From a virus (taxonomy: Duplodnaviria; Caudoviricetes), in the IMG/VR virus record IMGVR_UViG_3300042381_000848, positions 1,023 to 65,022 of that record: DNA of 64,000 nt, one strand, 5' to 3'. A program made the position numbers and the translations under genes. This document shows positions 41,369-64,000 of the stretch, one piece after another. Position 1 is the stretch's first letter. Every line of letters starts with the position of its first letter. The notes under the pieces were generated by a model. That model was not told the DNA's origin. It saw only the letters and a program-made list of their open reading frames with translations, and did not search any database.

Positions 41369-41457
41369 GGCTTTAAAATTTAATTGTTTAATTATTTAAT
41401 TATATATATAATATATAGAATATAAATTCAATATCCAACCTATAGGTAAACTTTTTT

Positions 41458-50564: not shown

Positions 50565-50646
50565 TATCTCTTATTTTTAATTATACTATAAATATAAGGA
50601 ATAAATCAATATGATCCTAGCATTTTGGCAAAAAAGTTTCACAAAA

Positions 50647-54071: not shown

Positions 54072-54131
54072 ATATCTCTTATTAATTATTATACTTAAAG
54101 ATAAGGAATTAATCAATAGGATCCTAATCTT

Positions 54132-54396: not shown

Positions 54397-55335
54397 CTAC
54401 ATTGCTATAATTTGCTCTGCTATCATCATCTTTGGATTGTCAAAGCCCATTGCACATATTCTGGCTGCTTTGATAAAGCTTCTGAGGTTAATCTCCAATC
54501 CGTCAAATTCCTCATTCAATTCCTTCATTAATGCTAATGCTTGTTGCTTAGCAGCAGTCGGGATGCGAGACTCCATTTTGTCAATCAATTGCTCCATTCG
54601 GGTAAACATTTGATCCGTTGTCAAATCAACATCTGCTACAAAGCTTCTGCTTCGGATTGCTTCATCTAAGCGGCTTTGACTAATATTGCTTATGAATATA
54701 ATTCTGCCTGTGAATTCAAAATGACGAGGTACTTCACTGCCAAACTCATCTTTAAGCGCTTTGCTTGTTATATAAGATATCTTGCGGGTGTCATAGCTGT
54801 CTAATGCTCCCTTAAGAATATTAACTGCATCATCATCTCTAAATACAGAGTCACAGTCATCCAACACAATAATCTTGTCACTGTTCTCATATAAGGTAAT
54901 AAACAAGCCGGCTGCCGTTGCTCTACCTTTGAAGTGAACAAAGTCATATGACTCTCTTAAGCCCATACCTTCTAAGGTACCTTTTACTAGGTGAGTCTTA
55001 CCCATTCCGGCACCTCCGGTAATTACTAGTGAGGGTTGAATGCCTTTGCCTACCATCTTTGTCAAGCGCTCAATATTGTCAAACATTGTCTGTGGATCCT
55101 GCTGCTGCTTAACTTGCATAAAGGACATTTTCTGTGGCTGCAGTGCTACTCCACTTTGTGCTGCTGGCATTCTAGTTACTCGGCCGTTAAACCCTACAAA
55201 CAATACTTCATTGTTCTTCTCAGCATTTAATAGCTGGATGTGTCTGATAACATCTTTTCCTGCAATCTCTCCGTTTGCAATGTTCTTTCCAAATAACTTT
55301 CCTTTGATTCTAACCGGTTTAAATACATTTGTCAT
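54397..55335 (-). CDS. AAA+/P-loop ATPase
   Basis: GGAGMGKT Walker A, VLDDCD Walker B, IFISN sensor, AIRSRS Arg finger. Confidence 0.85.
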   Translation of the reverse strand: MTNVFKPVRIKGKLFGKNIANGEIAGKDVIRHIQLLNAEKNNEVLFVGFNGRVTRMPAAQSGVALQPQKMSFMQVKQQQDPQTMFDNIERLTKMVGKGIQPSLVITGGAGMGKTHLVKGTLEGMGLRESYDFVHFKGRATAAGLFITLYENSDKIIVLDDCDSVFRDDDAVNILKGALDSYDTRKISYITSKALKDEFGSEVPRHFEFTGRIIFISNISQSRLDEAIRSRSFVADVDLTTDQMFTRMEQLIDKMESRIPTAAKQQALALMKELNEEFDGLEINLRSFIKAARICAMGFDNPKMMIAEQIIAM

Positions 55336-55444: not shown

Positions 55445-55621
55445 TTAAACTTTTTTTATATTCGAATCCGATAAGGTATCAACATGAATCTCTTCAATTG
55501 CGGCCTGAATTGTATTCAATGCGTCACCAAATAGGTATTGCATATTATTGTTTACTACGAATACATGCATTGCAACTAGTAATGCATTGGCGTCTTGGAT
55601 TTCTTTTTGGGTTCTGGTCAT
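55445..55621 (-). CDS. 58-aa early protein (not in ORF track)
   Basis: MTRTQKEIQDANALL...; promoter repeat and AAAATAAGAGAT leader. Confidence 0.65.
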   Translation of the reverse strand: MTRTQKEIQDANALLVAMHVFVVNNNMQYLFGDALNTIQAAIEEIHVDTLSDSNIKKV

Positions 55622-55693
55622 ATCTCTTATTTTTTATTATACTTAAAGATAATGAATTTATTTCAATTAACCTAATCTTTTGCAAACTTTTTT

Positions 55694-56449: not shown

Positions 56450-56716
56450 TCATCTGCTTAGATCTGGAGCTGTTTCGATAGTTGCTGCGCCTAACTCTAC
56501 AATAATGCATTCTTCGCCATTACCATCAATAAACTCCTCTACTATATGGAATTTAAATTCAAGTATTTTTGCCATTCTGTTTAGACAATCCATTTCTTGT
56601 CCTGCAATGATTACACATTGGCCTAACTTCTCTCCGGTTGGTCCAGAGAATGAATTATTCAATTCTCCAATACAATCAACGATCCCTTCAAATTCCCTTT
56701 TAGTGCACTTTTTCAT
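56450..56716 (-). CDS. Early hypothetical protein
   Basis: 88 aa; AAAATAAGAGAGAAT leader. Confidence 0.65.
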   Translation of the reverse strand: MKKCTKREFEGIVDCIGELNNSFSGPTGEKLGQCVIIAGQEMDCLNRMAKILEFKFHIVEEFIDGNGEECIIVELGAATIETAPDLSR

Positions 56717-56801
56717 ATTCTCTCTTATTTTTTATTATACTTAAAGATAATGAATTTATTTCAATTATCCTAATCTTTTTGAAACTTTTTTCAAACTTTT
56801 T

Positions 56802-56888
56802 TTAGCTATATTGGCCGGAGTATATTACTGCGTGCACTGCTAAGGTTACTTGGGTTACCATTGCTTCGAATTCTTTTTCTGACATCAT
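56802..56888 (-). CDS. 28-aa early peptide
   Basis: MMSEKEFEAMVTQVTLAVHAVIYSGQYS; AATAAGAGAG leader. Confidence 0.5.
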   Translation of the reverse strand: MMSEKEFEAMVTQVTLAVHAVIYSGQYS

Positions 56889-56893
56889 CTCTC

Positions 56894-56983
56894 TTATTTT
56901 TTACGGGTTAAACACTTAAGGATCAAAAACACATTGAGTACTAAACTCAGGTAAACTAGGTTGCTTTCAAATTCTGATAACAT
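56894..56983 (-). CDS. 29-aa early membrane peptide
   Basis: MLSEFESNLVYLSLVLNVFLILKCLTRKK; AATAAGAG leader. Confidence 0.5.
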   Translation of the reverse strand: MLSEFESNLVYLSLVLNVFLILKCLTRKK

Positions 56984-56995
56984 TGCTCTTATTTT

Positions 56996-57148: not shown

Positions 57149-57250
57149 ATCTCTTATTTTTTTAATTTAAACTCTTAGGGCCTTTCCCTAATTGCTATAC
57201 ATAAAGATAAGGAAAAAAAGAATGCGAACCTAATCTTTTGCAAACTTTTT

Positions 57251-57424: not shown

Positions 57425-57508
57425 ATCTCTTATTTTTTATTATACTTAAAGATAATGAAAAAAAGAATGCGAACCTAATCTTTTGCAAACTTTTTTCCAA
57501 CTTTTTTA

Positions 57509-58249
57509 CTACAAGTATTGCTCCAATAATTTGATGCCTGGCATTGCCTGTAAGCCTTTCTCTGCCAATCTAACCAATTGACGTGCTCGCTCTCCGGTAA
57601 CACCTAACTCCTCAGCTATCTGCTCCATTGGCTTAGCATACTCATATCCAATGCCATAATTCATTGTTATTGCTAAGCGTTGCTTCTCAGGTAATTGGTT
57701 CAATGCTCTCTGCAAGTCAAACAACAAATCCGATTTATCTCTACCTGACTTGGTTGCTTCAGACTCTAAGAATCGATCCGCATATGTTTCTTTGTTGTCA
57801 TCATCGCCTACCGGAGTATGTATACTTTTAATATACTGTGGTTCGGTTGATGTCTTGTGGGATGGGATCCTAACGACACGGGATAAATCATTTAATGCCT
57901 TTTGTATCTCGGCTCTGATATACCATACTGCAAAGGTAATGAATTTGACACCTTTAGTGACATCGAACCTTTCAGCTGCTTCAAACAATCCTACATTGGC
58001 AAATCCAATAAGATCTTCTAGCTCTAAGCCCATTCCTTGATATTGACGAGCAACTTGGATAGCGAAGCGTAAATTGGTTTCTATTAACTTGTTGCGGGCT
58101 TGTATATCGCCTTTTACCATAGCCTCAGCTAATGCCTTCTGATCCGTAGCGGCTATGTTAGACGCTTTCTTAATCTCCTTAACATAGATCCTAGTACTTG
58201 TAACATCTGTAACAATTGCACCATTTCCAACATGAATTCTTTTTTTCAT
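57509..58249 (-). CDS. Sigma-70 family RNA polymerase sigma factor (early gene)
   Basis: Probable start 58249; LIETNLRFAIQVARQYQGMGLELEDLI, FDVTKGVKFITFAVWYIR, region 4 MEQIAEELGVTGERARQL. Confidence 0.92.
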   Translation of the reverse strand: MKKRIHVGNGAIVTDVTSTRIYVKEIKKASNIAATDQKALAEAMVKGDIQARNKLIETNLRFAIQVARQYQGMGLELEDLIGFANVGLFEAAERFDVTKGVKFITFAVWYIRAEIQKALNDLSRVVRIPSHKTSTEPQYIKSIHTPVGDDDNKETYADRFLESEATKSGRDKSDLLFDLQRALNQLPEKQRLAITMNYGIGYEYAKPMEQIAEELGVTGERARQLVRLAEKGLQAMPGIKLLEQYL

Positions 58250-58356
58250 TCTCTCTTTTTTAAATTTATAACTCTTAATTCCTATACATAAAGATAAGCA
58301 TTTTATCTTTCGGATCCTAATCTTTTGGTAACTTTTTTCCAACTTTTTTAGCCCGC

Positions 58357-58548: not shown

Positions 58549-58643
58549 TTTCTCTCTTTTTTTAATTAAACTTATAACCCTTATTTCCTATATATAAAGA
58601 TAAGCATTTTTATGATAGGAACCTAATCTTTTTGAAACTTTTT

Positions 58644-58970: not shown

Positions 58971-59053
58971 ATTCTCTCTTTTTAAATTAATACTTAAAGA
59001 TAAGCATTTTATTTCAAATAACCTAATCTTTTTGAAACTTTTTTTAAACTTTT

Positions 59054-61250: not shown

Positions 61251-61333
61251 AACTCTTATTTTTTTAATTAATATAAAGATAAGAAAAATAATGTTCGGAT
61301 CCTAATCTTTTAGCAACTTTTTTTGGAAAATGT

Positions 61334-61951: not shown

Positions 61952-62003
61952 ATTCTCTTATTTTTTTATCTTATATAAAGATAAGCATTTTTTTGTTCGG
62001 ATC

Positions 62004-62198: not shown

Positions 62199-62297
62199 AT
62201 TCTCTCTTTTTAATTATACTTAAAGATAAGCATTTTATTTCAATTAACCTAATCTTTTGGCAACTTTTTTCTAAAAGTTATTCACAATTTAGATTAA

Positions 62298-62549: not shown

Positions 62550-62641
62550 ATCTCTTATTATTTTTGCTTATATAAAGATAAGCATTTTTTTGTTCGAAAC
62601 CTAATCTTTTTGAAACTTTTTTAATAAAAGTTATTCACAAT

Positions 62642-62836
62642 TTATATAGGCTCGTAAATTTCAAAATTCAAATCTGCATATTTAGATTCTAAAAGTGCTA
62701 CTGAAAATACAAACCCTTTCGGATCCGTTAAAGTTGTATACCCGTTAGGGAGCATTTTTACTCGTCCTAACATTACTCTGTCAGTGCCGTTATTAACCCA
62801 CACTCGCTGCTTGTTCCTTAAATCTACTTTTTTCAT
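62642..62836 (-). CDS. Early hypothetical protein
   Basis: 64 aa; ATAAGAGAT leader. Confidence 0.6.
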   Translation of the reverse strand: MKKVDLRNKQRVWVNNGTDRVMLGRVKMLPNGYTTLTDPKGFVFSVALLESKYADLNFEIYEPI

Positions 62837-62950
62837 ATATCTCTTATAATTTTAATATACATAAAGATAAGCATTTTATTTCAATTATCCTAATTTATTT
62901 GGAGAAATGTTTGGAGAAGTTATTCACAAGTTATTCACAGCAAATTGTGA

Positions 62951-63104
62951 ATAAAAAAAGCACCCGGGAATAAGAGAGAAACCCGAGTGCCTATGCGACG
63001 CCTGGAAAATAAGAGAGTGAACCAGACGCTTTAATATGTGGGTGGGATCGCAATGAGTTGGTCCCACCATGTTACGAGGTTGAGCACTTAGGCTGCAATC
63101 CCTC
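62951..63104 (-). ncRNA. Candidate structured antisense sRNA (four hairpins; two loops complementary to early-gene leaders)
   Basis: Hairpin 62960-62990 loop UUUCUCUCUUAUU plus U7 tail; hairpin 62998-63029 loop UUCACUCUCUUAUUUU; three plus-strand A.C mismatches are G.U pairs on the minus strand. Confidence 0.7.
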
Positions 63105-63172
63105 TAATCCTGAAAGTCAAATACAACGGCAAATACGCCAACTACTAAAAATATAATGATCAAGGCATTCAT
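63104..63172 (-). CDS. 22-aa hydrophobic peptide
   Basis: MNALIIIFLVVGVFAVVFDFQD; ATGA overlap with the upstream peptide. Confidence 0.5.
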   Translation of the reverse strand: MNALIIIFLVVGVFAVVFDFQD

Positions 63173-63258
63173 AAACTCATTATGACAGCTACTGCTACTG
63201 CGCCCAACCAACCTGCTACTGCTAATATGATTAGCGTGGTATCAAATACTTTTTTCAT
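63169..63258 (-). CDS. 29-aa single-TM peptide
   Basis: MKKVFDTTLIILAVAGWLGAVAVAVIMSL; middle-type promoter at 63276-63308. Confidence 0.55.
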   Translation of the reverse strand: MKKVFDTTLIILAVAGWLGAVAVAVIMSL

Positions 63259-63349
63259 ATCTTCTTATTTACACTTATATTATATGAAATATACATGCGG
63301 AATCCAACCTAAAAGCAAAAAAAGTTTACTCGCTATAGCTAGTGATCTG

Positions 63350-63980
63350 AACTAAAACCGTTCTATAGGTCTAAAAATAGGGTGAGACTAAAAATAGGAC
63401 TAAAAATAACAAGGGTATTTTTTCTAAAAATAGCCTGATTTCGTCTAAATATAGGATGGGGAGGAGTGGATATCCCGGCTATTGCTCTAAAACCAGGACG
63501 CTCAATAGCTAGCAATCTAATAGCAATCAGCACTATACGCACTAAAAATAGGATACCAGGTTACGCTCTATATATACAAGAATGCATCTAAAAGCAAAAC
63601 CACTATATATAGAGACTAAATATAGATCAGCAATTGGACTAAAAATAAGACCACTCCTTCTAAAAATGAATCCGCAATTGGACTAAAAATAGATGGCATT
63701 TCGCCTAAAAATAGATGCTTCCCTAACCCGCGCCATTGAGTTCGTTTAAGAACATCTAGGCACGTATAAGGCCAAGTATCCAACAGGAAAGGGATATAGA
63801 GACTATGCCCCGGGAAAATAAGTAGGACCGGGAGGAATATATATAACCTGTCTTGCTGACAGCTACTAGACACTAAACTTGCCATTCCGTCTCGATATAA
63901 GACCAGTACTTATACGTGCAATGCTTCTAAAAATGGATTGGGGTGCGGGAGGTGCTAGACTCTGACTCGAAAATAGCGTA
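63350..63980 (+). repeat. Non-coding field of CTAAAAATAG (CTA-N4-TAG) motifs
   Basis: Exact at 63371, 63388, 63424, 63542, 63683, 63705; variants at 63400, 63445, 63603, 63616, 63639, 63660, 63927. Confidence 0.85.
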
Positions 63981-64000
63981 CCTAGTAACCTGGGTAAAGG

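What the first reader, a model, noticed from the sequence alone, without database searches (positions are those of the whole stretch)
62951..63104. Candidate multi-target antisense sRNA that silences the early regulon through its shared leader
Seen: on the minus strand two adjacent GC-rich stems with unrelated stem sequences carry near-identical large loops, UUCACUCUCUUAUUUU (63006-63021) and UUUCUCUCUUAUU (62969-62981); the last stem is followed by U7. Three stem positions are A.C on plus but G.U on minus, which points to the minus strand and to selection on RNA structure. The loops are antisense to the leader before about 19 early genes: 12-nt perfect matches at 56716 (AAUAAGAGAGAA) and 56888 (AAAAUAAGAGAG), 11 nt at 55621, 57148, 57424, 61951 and 50564, and shorter matches elsewhere including the phage sigma-70 gene. 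The RNA lies downstream of a middle-type promoter (63276-63308), not an early one. Known analogy: S. aureus RNAIII uses repeated loops to block ribosome-binding sites. Inference: early sigma, then middle promoter, then sRNA, then translational shut-off of early mRNAs including the sigma itself, an RNA feedback timer I do not recall being described in phages.
Basis: partly seen in the sequence, partly recalled or inferred. Interest (0 to 1): 0.92.

Follow-up and report, generated by a model that had tools for sequence, protein, structure and literature searches.

The report
Phage RNA with anti-leader loops
An uncultured freshwater phage and its relatives carry a conserved folded RNA whose exposed loops are the mirror image of the short tag in front of its early genes, so one RNA probably masks the start sites of that whole gene class, although nobody has yet shown that it is made or that it represses.

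Summary
Observation confirmed. On the minus (gene) strand, 62951-63104 folds into four hairpins. The last two carry 16- and 13-nt loops sharing CTCTCTTAT, followed by T7.

- **Conservation:** relatives keep the unit at the same place. 18 distinct hairpins from 12 sources keep the loop while 16 different stems stay paired (0 of 1000 shuffles as good). G-U pairs favour the gene strand.
- **Targets:** the loops are complementary (8 nt or more) to 22 gene-strand sites. 20 lie within 4 nt of start codons of early-region genes, including the phage sigma gene.
- **Co-variation:** lineages with altered leaders carry matching altered anti-leaders.
- **Databases:** no Rfam family matches.

Best reading: a trans-acting anti-leader RNA, the 3' part of a micro-ORF transcript driven by a separate promoter class, that masks early start regions. 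Expression, timing and repression are untested; the one RNA run gave no cover.

Closest in architecture are the cuckoo/CcsR RNAs; closest in role are T4 RegA/RegB.

This scan had already noted the same RNA family on another genome (e1-5660438) and like arrangements in other phage lineages.

The parts
63279..63307 (-). Promoter-like element TTGGAT (63307-63302), 17-nt spacer, TATAAT (63284-63279). I call this 'class M'; it is distinct from the early cassettes.
   Evidence: The same GGTTGGAT...TTTCATATAATATA element precedes the unit in L002, L003, L004, L005, L008, L009, L012, L014, L017, L021, L023 and L148. Further copies in the window lie at 41438 and 38247. The simple sigma-70 scan did not call it.
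63169..63258 (-). Micro-ORF 1: 29 aa, hydrophobic (one predicted membrane span), plus stop codon.
   Evidence: No Pfam family. L003 has a similar peptide. Other relatives keep a 25-30 aa hydrophobic ORF of different sequence at this place.
63104..63172 (-). Micro-ORF 2: 22 aa, hydrophobic. Its start overlaps the stop of micro-ORF 1 (ATGA).
   Evidence: Read directly from the sequence.
63076..63104 (-). Hairpin P1 (outer GAGG/CCTC stem around an inner stem). It begins at the stop codon of micro-ORF 2.
   Evidence: MFE and centroid. A counterpart is visible in L003, L004, L012, L005 and L017.
63041..63068 (-). Hairpin P2 (GGTGGGA...TCCCACC). This is a short form of a longer conserved hairpin in relatives.
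   Evidence: In relatives the outer stem changes with pairing kept, 5 of 6 predicted pairs have double changes.
62998..63029 (-). Hairpin Ha: 8-bp stem and a 16-nt anti-leader loop (63021-63006).
62958..62992 (-). Hairpin Hb: 11-bp stem and a 13-nt anti-leader loop (62981-62969). It doubles as the terminator stem.
62953..62959 (-). T7 tract after Hb.
62551..62559 (-). Leader site, 9 nt complementary to the loops, 1 nt before the ATG of an 83-aa ORF.
62200..62208 (-). Leader site, 9 nt, 1 nt before the ATG (64 aa).
   Evidence: -12.0 kcal/mol.
61954..61964 (-). Leader site, 11 nt, 2 nt before the ATG (50 aa).
61253..61262 (-). Leader site, 10 nt, 2 nt before the ATG (62 aa).
58972..58980 (-). 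Leader site, 9 nt, 1 nt before the ATG (108 aa).
58549..58558 (-). Leader site, 10 nt, abutting the ATG (63 aa).
   Evidence: -12.9.
58249..58257 (-). Leader site, 9 nt, overlapping the ATG of the phage sigma-70-family gene (246 aa from this ATG).
   Evidence: -12.0. Sigma identity. Relatives' sigma ORFs start at the equivalent ATG.
57426..57436 (-). Leader site, 11 nt, 1 nt before the ATG (57 aa).
57150..57160 (-). Leader site, 11 nt, 1 nt before the ATG (50 aa).
56986..56995 (-). Leader site, 10 nt, 2 nt before the ATG (29 aa).
56888..56900 (-). Leader site, 13 nt (matches of the two loops merged), overlapping the ATG (28 aa).
56718..56731 (-). Leader site, 14 nt (merged), 1 nt before the ATG (88 aa). 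Best predicted duplex.
   Evidence: -14.6 kcal/mol.
55623..55633 (-). Leader site, 11 nt, 1 nt before the ATG (58 aa).
54951..54959 (-). Leader site, 9 nt, 3 nt before the ATG (48 aa). It matches the A-containing variant of loop Ha.
54075..54083 (-). Leader site, 9 nt, 3 nt before the ATG (98 aa).
50567..50577 (-). Leader site, 11 nt, 2 nt before the ATG (75 aa). Most distal early cassette.

Best explanation
The element is the structured 3' part of a short transcript: promoter at 63307-63279, two hydrophobic micro-ORFs, four hairpins, then T7.

Its two large loops, and equivalent single-stranded or loop segments in related phages, act as seeds. [quoted passage not shown] Pairing covers the ribosome-binding region, and in some lineages the AUG itself. 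It therefore lowers initiation on the whole early class, including the phage sigma factor.

**Shown here**
- The fold and its conservation with co-varying stems.
- The strand.
- The complementarity and its restriction to early start sites.
- Lineage-specific matching of leader and anti-leader variants.
- A promoter class different from the early cassettes.

**Inferred**
- That the RNA is made.
- That it acts in trans.
- That the effect is repression.
- That its promoter needs the phage sigma, which would make the circuit a delayed negative feedback.
For: **1. Structure under selection.**
- 20 hairpin units (18 distinct) from the window and 11 loci have 16 distinct stems.
- Mean helix length is 8.5 bp, against 5.52 +/- 0.34 when the 3' halves are swapped (max 6.7; 0 of 1000).
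- In register, 85% of stem cells pair, against 63% shuffled (0 of 1000). Stem positions 3-8 each show 3-5 standard pair types.

**2. RNA strand.** Gene-strand stems average 8.5 bp with 19 G-U pairs. Opposite-strand stems average 6.2 bp with 7.

**3. Targets.**
- Window: 20 of 22 sites of 8 nt or more precede ATG-ORFs; 16 of 16 at 9 nt or more; 0 of 8 on the other strand.
- Across 12 sources: 153 of 179 gene-strand sites precede ATG-ORFs, against 2 of 40 on the other strand.
- 17 of 110 candidate starts have a duplex of -9 kcal/mol or better, and 16 of those lie in the early region. Shuffled loops give a mean of 4.2 (max 13; 0 of 200 reach 17). Mann-Whitney p = 1e-6.

**4. The anti-leader is kept in different structural contexts, which points to pairing rather than to a shape.**
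- 13-17 nt loops.
- A 29-nt loop in L016 that also covers the start codon.
- A single-stranded seed before a terminator in L026 and L156.

**5. Matching variants.**
- GATAGA leaders make up 7 of 17 in L028 and 0-2 elsewhere. The complementary loop variant occurs only in L028, and again in the metagenome relative L159.
- GAGAGT leaders make up 4-5 of 11-12 in L008-L011 and 2 or fewer elsewhere. The matching loop letter occurs only there and in the window.
- The L156 seed matches its AUAGAGAUAUG-type leaders.

**6. Copy number.** One copy per complete genome (G002, G003).

**7. These phages already mask the same leader by pairing in cis.** An anti-leader element after a stop codon is predicted to pair with the next gene's leader and ATG.

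**8. The tag is not a Shine-Dalgarno sequence.**
- The phage encodes bS21, whose only genome hit is a Flavobacterium MAG.
- bS21 phages of this kind are predicted to infect Bacteroidetes (PMC9723584, passages).
- Bacteroidetes ribosomes do not use SD pairing, and the 16S tail used as a control oligo there is not complementary to the tag (PMC7797042, passages).
Against: - **No expression evidence.** The single RNA run covers only 62600-62894 and not the RNA, and contigs cannot show strand or ends.
- **No general co-evolution signal.** Own loops against own leaders give a mean longest match of 8.24 nt, against 8.04 for foreign pairs. Own loops rank 1-9 of 12.
- **A counter-example.** L008-L011 keep the loop letters complementary to TAAGAG although only 0-1 of 11-12 of their leaders have it.
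- **Apparent absences.** L024 and L025 have the full upstream flank and an AAGAGA-type leader, but no clear anti-leader hairpin at the place.
- **Stoichiometry.** One RNA with two seeds would have to titrate some 20 abundant early mRNAs.
- **Topology.** Loops of 13-16 nt cannot form the full 11-14 bp duplex without strain.
- **Promoter.** The simple sigma-70 scan did not call it. Its dependence on the phage sigma is inference only. In L028/L159 the unit seems to lie behind a different promoter type.
Confidence: 0.55

Rival explanations
1. Protein-binding or titrating RNA. The conserved pyrimidine loops on variable stems are sites for a protein, such as ribosomal protein S1, a phage RNA-binding protein, or phage/host bS21. 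The RNA sequesters or recruits that protein, and the match to the leader is secondary.
For: An invariant loop on variable stems is also the signature of protein-binding hairpins. Extra conserved upstream domains with internal conserved letters have no explained role in pairing. The phage encodes bS21.
Against: The anti-leader is kept when the hairpin context is lost: single-stranded in L026 and L156, and a 29-nt loop in L016. Loop variants track leader variants. The complementarity extends to 11-14 nt.
Confidence: 0.12
2. Base-pairing RNA with a positive or neutral outcome. It binds early leaders to protect them from a nuclease, or to open cis-masked start sites by competing with the cis anti-leader elements. 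It would then raise or prolong early expression.
For: The complementarity evidence is the same. The RNA gene sits at the head of the early region. In L028/L159 it seems to have an early-like promoter.
Against: In L016, L026 and L156 the seed covers the AUG itself, which is hard to reconcile with activation. Both the loops and the cis elements are anti-leader, so the RNA cannot displace a cis mask by binding the mask.
Confidence: 0.1
3. A purely cis-acting 3' structure: a tandem terminator, stabiliser or insulator of the micro-ORF transcript. Alternatively, a mask acting only on the first early gene in read-through transcripts.
For: Hb plus T7 looks like a terminator. The first early gene starts 120-170 nt downstream. 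These phages do use cis anti-leader masks.
Against: Terminators do not need invariant 13-16 nt loops, and the terminator scan (loops of 3-8 nt) did not call these hairpins. Relatives with an ordinary small-loop terminator still keep one CU-loop hairpin upstream of it (L005, L014, L017, L023, L148). The loops match about 20 leaders, not one.
Confidence: 0.1
4. A plus-strand transcript or DNA-level element. The plus strand displays leader-like AATAAGAGAG in loops as a decoy. Alternatively, the inverted repeats act as DNA sites near the repeat field at 63330-64000.
For: The plus-strand hairpins would display leader copies. DNA repeats flank the unit on both sides.
Against: G-U pairs make the stems longer on the minus strand (8.5 against 6.2 bp; 19 against 7 G-U pairs). 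The T-tract and all genes are on the minus strand. The plus-strand fold is weaker.
Confidence: 0.03

Closest known systems
Cuckoo / CcsR RNAs of Alphaproteobacteria (PMC4615179 and PMC8034643; abstracts read)
   Same: Two to four adjacent hairpins, each loop carrying the same pyrimidine motif while the stems vary. [quoted passage not shown] Here there are two adjacent hairpins with a shared loop motif on unrelated stems, downstream of micro-ORFs.
   Different: The loop motif is different (CCUCCUCCC there). Those RNAs are chromosomal genes of Alphaproteobacteria downstream of a DUF1127 protein, whereas here the upstream peptides have no Pfam family. No Rfam model matched even at E up to 10. Here the carrier is a phage and the targets are its own early genes through a private non-SD tag.
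CU-rich multi-loop sRNAs of Firmicutes (LhrC, RsaE, S. aureus RNAIII). The biology is recalled, not read here.
   Same: Redundant pyrimidine-rich loops, including the terminator loop, pair with purine-rich ribosome-binding regions of several mRNAs.
   Different: Not a member. LhrC (RF00616) scores 18.9 bits against a gathering score of 110 (E 2.7), and 18.7 bits in L004. Those RNAs pair with true SD sequences of host genes.
T4 RegB endonuclease and RegA repressor (PMC3014915; passages read)
   Same: A phage-encoded general device that inactivates early mRNAs through a short motif in their translation initiation regions. RegB also acts on its own mRNA, as the RNA here would act on the sigma mRNA.
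   Different: Those are proteins that cleave at, or bind, initiation regions. Here the proposed effector is an RNA that pairs with the motif.
c4 antisense RNA of phages P1/P7 (recalled; only a search listing was seen)
   Same: A phage RNA whose loops pair with sites around a ribosome-binding region to block translation.
   Different: It has a single target operon (ant) in an immunity circuit of temperate phages. The Rfam search listed no such family at E up to 10.
Start-associated sequences of cluster K mycobacteriophages (PMC3203893; search listing only)
   Same: A conserved short sequence placed just before the start codons of a subset of phage genes.
   Different: I know of no matching antisense RNA reported for them, and I did not read the paper's text.

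Membership tests
Cuckoo / CcsR RNA family | 2-4 adjacent hairpins with the same loop motif and variable stems | tested here: met
   Two adjacent hairpins with a shared loop core. 16 distinct stems across 20 units.
Cuckoo / CcsR RNA family | Loop motif CCUCCUCCC (PMC4615179 abstract) | tested here: not met
   The loops read TTCACTCTCTTATTTT and TTTCTCTCTTATT.
Cuckoo / CcsR RNA family | Lies downstream of a DUF1127 (ccaF) gene in Alphaproteobacteria (PMC8034643 abstract) | tested here: not met
   The upstream ORFs are 29- and 22-aa hydrophobic peptides. The 29-aa one has no Pfam hit. The record is a virus contig.
LhrC (Rfam RF00616) | Covariance-model score at or above the gathering score (110 bits) | tested here: not met
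   18.9 bits, E 2.7; 18.7 bits in L004.
Any Rfam 15 family (including phage antisense RNAs) | Match at the gathering threshold | tested here: not met
   0 matches in the whole window. Only chance-level matches at E up to 10.
Intrinsic terminator | GC-rich stem, short loop (3-8 nt), T-tract | tested here: inconclusive
   Hb has an 11-bp stem and T7 but a 13-nt loop. The scan did not call it.
Trans-acting base-pairing sRNA (general kind) | Conserved unpaired seed complementary to the translation initiation regions of its targets | tested here: met
Trans-acting base-pairing sRNA (general kind) | Seed and target change together | tested here: inconclusive
   Matching variants occur in L028/L159, L008-L011, L026, L156 and L016. 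The own-versus-foreign matrix shows no general signal (8.24 against 8.04), and L008-L011 give one mismatch of pattern.
Trans-acting base-pairing sRNA (general kind) | The RNA is expressed as a discrete transcript | tested here: inconclusive
   The one RNA run (contigs) did not cover the RNA. A promoter-like element and a terminator-like end are present.
Trans-acting base-pairing sRNA (general kind) | Regulation of targets depends on pairing | not testable with these tools
   This needs reporters with loop mutants and compensatory mutants.

The most novel reading that the evidence does not exclude
The purine tag before the early genes is not a ribosome-binding signal. It is a private address label, in a host whose ribosomes ignore Shine-Dalgarno sequences. 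The phage tags every early mRNA, including that of its own sigma factor. One RNA made from sigma-dependent promoters, helped by cis copies of the same anti-tag after stop codons, can then switch the whole class off. This would be an all-RNA counterpart of T4 RegA/RegB wired as a delayed negative-feedback timer. The scan's notes on other phage lineages suggest it may be one instance of a widespread, undescribed way for phages to end the early phase.
Probability: 0.33. Interest if true: 0.88.

Novelty: new variant of a known kind. Interest (0 to 1): 0.72.

Why it matters
Temporal shut-off of early genes is a central step of lytic development. It is understood for only a few model phages, where proteins do the job (T4 RegA, RegB).

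- **Mechanism:** if this reading holds, a single small RNA reads a shared leader tag and controls about 20 genes at once.
- **Host context:** this would happen in phages of a phylum (Bacteroidota) whose translation initiation lacks Shine-Dalgarno pairing and whose RNA regulators are poorly known.
- **An old puzzle:** it offers a concrete, testable reason why phage gene classes carry identical leaders.
- **Practical use:** it gives a compact orthogonal tag-and-anti-tag pair that could be tested as a translational switch in Flavobacteria.

Tried and rejected
**Databases with no useful answer**
- Isolated-phage records hold no close relative. DNA search: 1 record with a 93-nt match. Protein search with the sigma factor: best 27-31% identity.
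- No tRNA or tmRNA in the window.

**Expression**
- Of 24 runs listed, one is RNA and holds 0.05 of the sampled words.
- Laid together with three DNA runs, its three contigs cover 62600-62894 only.
- This says nothing for or against expression of the RNA.

**Alignment-based structure tools**
- MAFFT left the hairpin units ungapped or gapped only at the ends (A1, A3). The stems were therefore out of register, and I did not use the count of structure pairs or build a covariance model.
- RNAalifold on a MAFFT alignment of 9 whole RNAs found only 6 pairs, all in P2.
- I computed the in-register pair table in Python instead.

**Co-evolution matrix**
- Own loops against own or foreign leaders showed no clear diagonal.

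**Pattern scans of viral contigs**
Only 6 of the loci I screened are true homologues, all on contigs already found through the sigma gene.
- The single-loop pattern gave 7 stretches, with one new homologue (L148) and two chance matches in coding-looking DNA (L147, L150).

**Metagenome scan**
- 80 loci were kept, of which 11 have 50% identity or more to the sigma factor.
- I examined 9 of the 11. I left out L157 and L160, which have the contig lengths of L024 and L029.
- I did not examine the 69 loci at 35% identity or less.

**Other checks**
- The simple promoter/terminator scan called neither the TTGGAT promoter nor the large-loop hairpins.
- The 48-aa frame at 62924-63070 is rejected as a gene. 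It lies across P2, Ha and Hb, whose stems change by paired substitutions and indels in relatives.
- The supplements of PMC9723584 (genome lists, host tables) were not available. They may show whether this clade is among that paper's bS21 phages.

Full report
**Setting.** The window is bases 1023-65022 of a 65-kb IMG/VR virus record estimated 39% complete.
- Nearly all long frames are on the minus strand.
- The record encodes a sigma-70-family protein at 57509-58249 (Sigma70_r2 and r4).
- It also encodes ribosomal protein bS21 at 744-989 (PF01165, 44.5 bits against a cut-off of 27).
- The only genome hit of the bS21 is a Flavobacterium MAG at 37% identity.
- Phages with bS21 next to structural genes have been predicted to infect Bacteroidetes (PMC9723584, passages).
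- No close relative exists among isolated phages.

On the minus strand, 63104-62953 folds into four hairpins followed by T7.
- The last two hairpins have unrelated stems of 8 and 11 bp.
- Their loops, 16 and 13 nt, share CTCTCTTAT at exactly the coordinates given.
- The minus strand folds better than the plus strand (z -2.87 against -1.79).
- The unit follows two overlapping hydrophobic micro-ORFs of 29 and 22 aa.
- A TTGGAT-17-TATAAT element lies at 63307-63279.

**It is a conserved RNA.** Searching viral contigs with the sigma protein gave 28 loci.
- 17 loci carry one or two hairpins with the same loop at the same place, upstream of the first early cassette.
- 4 more loci carry variants: L016, L021, L026 and L028.
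- 5 of the remaining 7 loci hold 4.3 kb or less upstream of the sigma gene, so the place may lie off the record.
- L024 and L025 have the full flank and no clear counterpart.
- Twenty units (18 distinct) show 16 different stems. Helices average 8.5 bp, against 5.5 when the 3' halves are exchanged (0 of 1000).
- In register, 85% of stem cells pair against 63% shuffled (0 of 1000), with several pair types at positions 3-8.
- G-U pairs make the stems longer on the gene strand (8.5 against 6.2 bp; 19 against 7 G-U pairs). This argues for an RNA of the gene strand rather than a DNA element.
- In two complete relatives the loop core occurs once on the gene strand.
- Rfam has nothing at gathering level. 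The best sub-threshold match, LhrC at 18.9 bits against 110, is a resemblance of architecture only.

**The loops are antisense to the early leader.**
- In the window, 22 gene-strand sites match the loops over 8 nt or more.
- 20 of them lie 0-4 nt before an ATG-ORF, all between 50.5 and 63.3 kb. At 9 nt or more it is 16 of 16. On the other strand it is 0 of 8.
- The sigma gene's start is among these sites.
- The sites follow a 45-bp promoter cassette present 17 times between 50.6 and 62.9 kb.
- The box of that cassette (TATCTTTA) resembles the TAnnTTTG -7 box of Flavobacterium sigma-A (PMC9723704, passages).
- Over 12 sources, 153 of 179 gene-strand sites precede ATG-ORFs, against 2 of 40 on the other strand.
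- Predicted duplexes of -9 kcal/mol or better occur at 17 of 110 candidate starts, 16 of them early. Shuffled loops reach at most 13 (0 of 200).
- The tag is not a Shine-Dalgarno sequence. It does not match the 16S tail quoted for F. johnsoniae, whose ribosomes do not use SD pairing (PMC7797042, passages).

**Evidence that pairing, not shape, is selected.**
- The anti-leader appears in three contexts: 13-17 nt loops; a 29-nt loop that also covers the start codon (L016); and a single-stranded seed before a terminator (L026, L156).
- Variant leaders have matching variant anti-leaders.
  - GATAGA-type leaders make up 7 of 17 in L028 and 0-2 elsewhere. The complementary loop is found only in L028 and its metagenome relative L159.
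  - GAGAGT-type leaders make up 4-5 of 11-12 in L008-L011, with the matching loop letter there.
- Against this, an own-versus-foreign comparison shows no general signal (8.24 against 8.04 nt).
- L008-L011 also keep loop letters for a leader form they hardly use.
- The same phages place an anti-leader element right after certain stop codons. There it is predicted to pair with the next gene's leader and ATG. Masking this leader by pairing is therefore already part of their repertoire.

**Timing.**
- The promoter before the unit differs from the early cassettes and is conserved in front of the unit in 12 relatives.
- Like elements precede non-early operons at 41438 and 38247.
- The sigma gene lies behind an early cassette. 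A sigma-dependent second class is therefore plausible, and it would make the circuit a delayed feedback. This is inference.
- The simple sigma-70 scan does not call the element.
- L028/L159 seem to use another promoter type.
- The only RNA run gave no cover of the RNA.

**Comparison and novelty.**
- The architecture is that of cuckoo/CcsR RNAs: adjacent hairpins, the same loop motif, variable stems, and a position in the 3' UTR of a small-protein gene (PMC4615179 and PMC8034643, abstracts). The loop motif, the upstream gene and the taxon all fail the membership test.
- The role resembles T4 RegB/RegA, which inactivate early mRNAs through their initiation regions (PMC3014915, passages).
- Two full-text searches and a 2025 review of phage sRNAs (searched for terms only) gave no phage RNA that controls a whole temporal class through a shared leader. 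This is not proof of absence.
- Earlier notes of this scan describe the same RNA family on another genome, and similar arrangements in other phage lineages. I took the cuckoo and c4 leads from them and checked the cuckoo abstracts myself.

**Verdict.** The RNA element is real and conserved. A trans-acting anti-leader regulator is the best-supported reading (0.55). Repression and the timer circuit remain to be shown.

Noticed in passing
window 55898-55889 pairing with 55840-55832 (minus strand); also L002, L003, L005, L007, L011, L013, L021: A 10-nt anti-leader plus anti-start element lies 1-2 nt after a stop codon. It is predicted to pair with the next gene's leader and ATG around a conserved GC-rich hairpin. 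This looks like start-site masking relieved by the terminating ribosome (translational coupling).
   Followed up: partly
L003:10334, L004:13157, L005:7595, L007:5950, L011:11521, L013:8048, L021:8311, L024:10736, L025:10734, L026:12484, L027:5084, L028:50: The same anti-leader element after a stop codon, but followed directly by a terminator hairpin. That is a seed-plus-terminator layout, as in 3'UTR-derived sRNAs. The window's counterpart after the 312-aa ATPase gene (about 54396-54340) has a CT-rich stretch of different sequence.
   Followed up: partly
window 63104-63258 (minus): Two overlapping hydrophobic micro-ORFs (29 and 22 aa) lie between the TTGGAT promoter and the RNA. Most relatives keep one 25-30 aa membrane-span-like ORF here, with little sequence conservation.
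   Followed up: partly
window 63330-64000; also the starts of the units in L016, L019, L020, L026, L028: A gene-poor field of CTATTTTTAG-like repeats lies directly upstream of the RNA unit, and it is conserved in position in relatives. Its function is unknown (binding-site array, origin or end-related).
   Followed up: no
window 62920-62954; L002, L004, L012, L014, L017, L023, L024, L025 just after the RNA: Two or three TGTGAATAA repeats (the reverse complement fits the DnaA-box consensus as recalled) follow the RNA's T-tract in the window and in many relatives.
   Followed up: no
L013:3107-3548: A 138-aa ORF sits immediately after the CU-loop hairpin, and the 3' half of the hairpin is repeated behind it. 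This looks like an insertion into or next to the RNA gene.
   Followed up: no
window 50.6-62.9 kb (17 copies), and L013, L025: The early cassette has two interchangeable upstream boxes (GATTAGGAT or TTGACACG) about 18-20 nt before TTATCTTTAAGTAT. The box resembles the Flavobacterium sigma-A -7 consensus TAnnTTTG, with A in place of the last G.
   Followed up: partly
L016:5690-5765: A tRNA-like 3' end lies between the TTGG-type promoter and the anti-leader RNA in this relative. I did not run a tRNA scan on it.
   Followed up: no
   Followed up: partly
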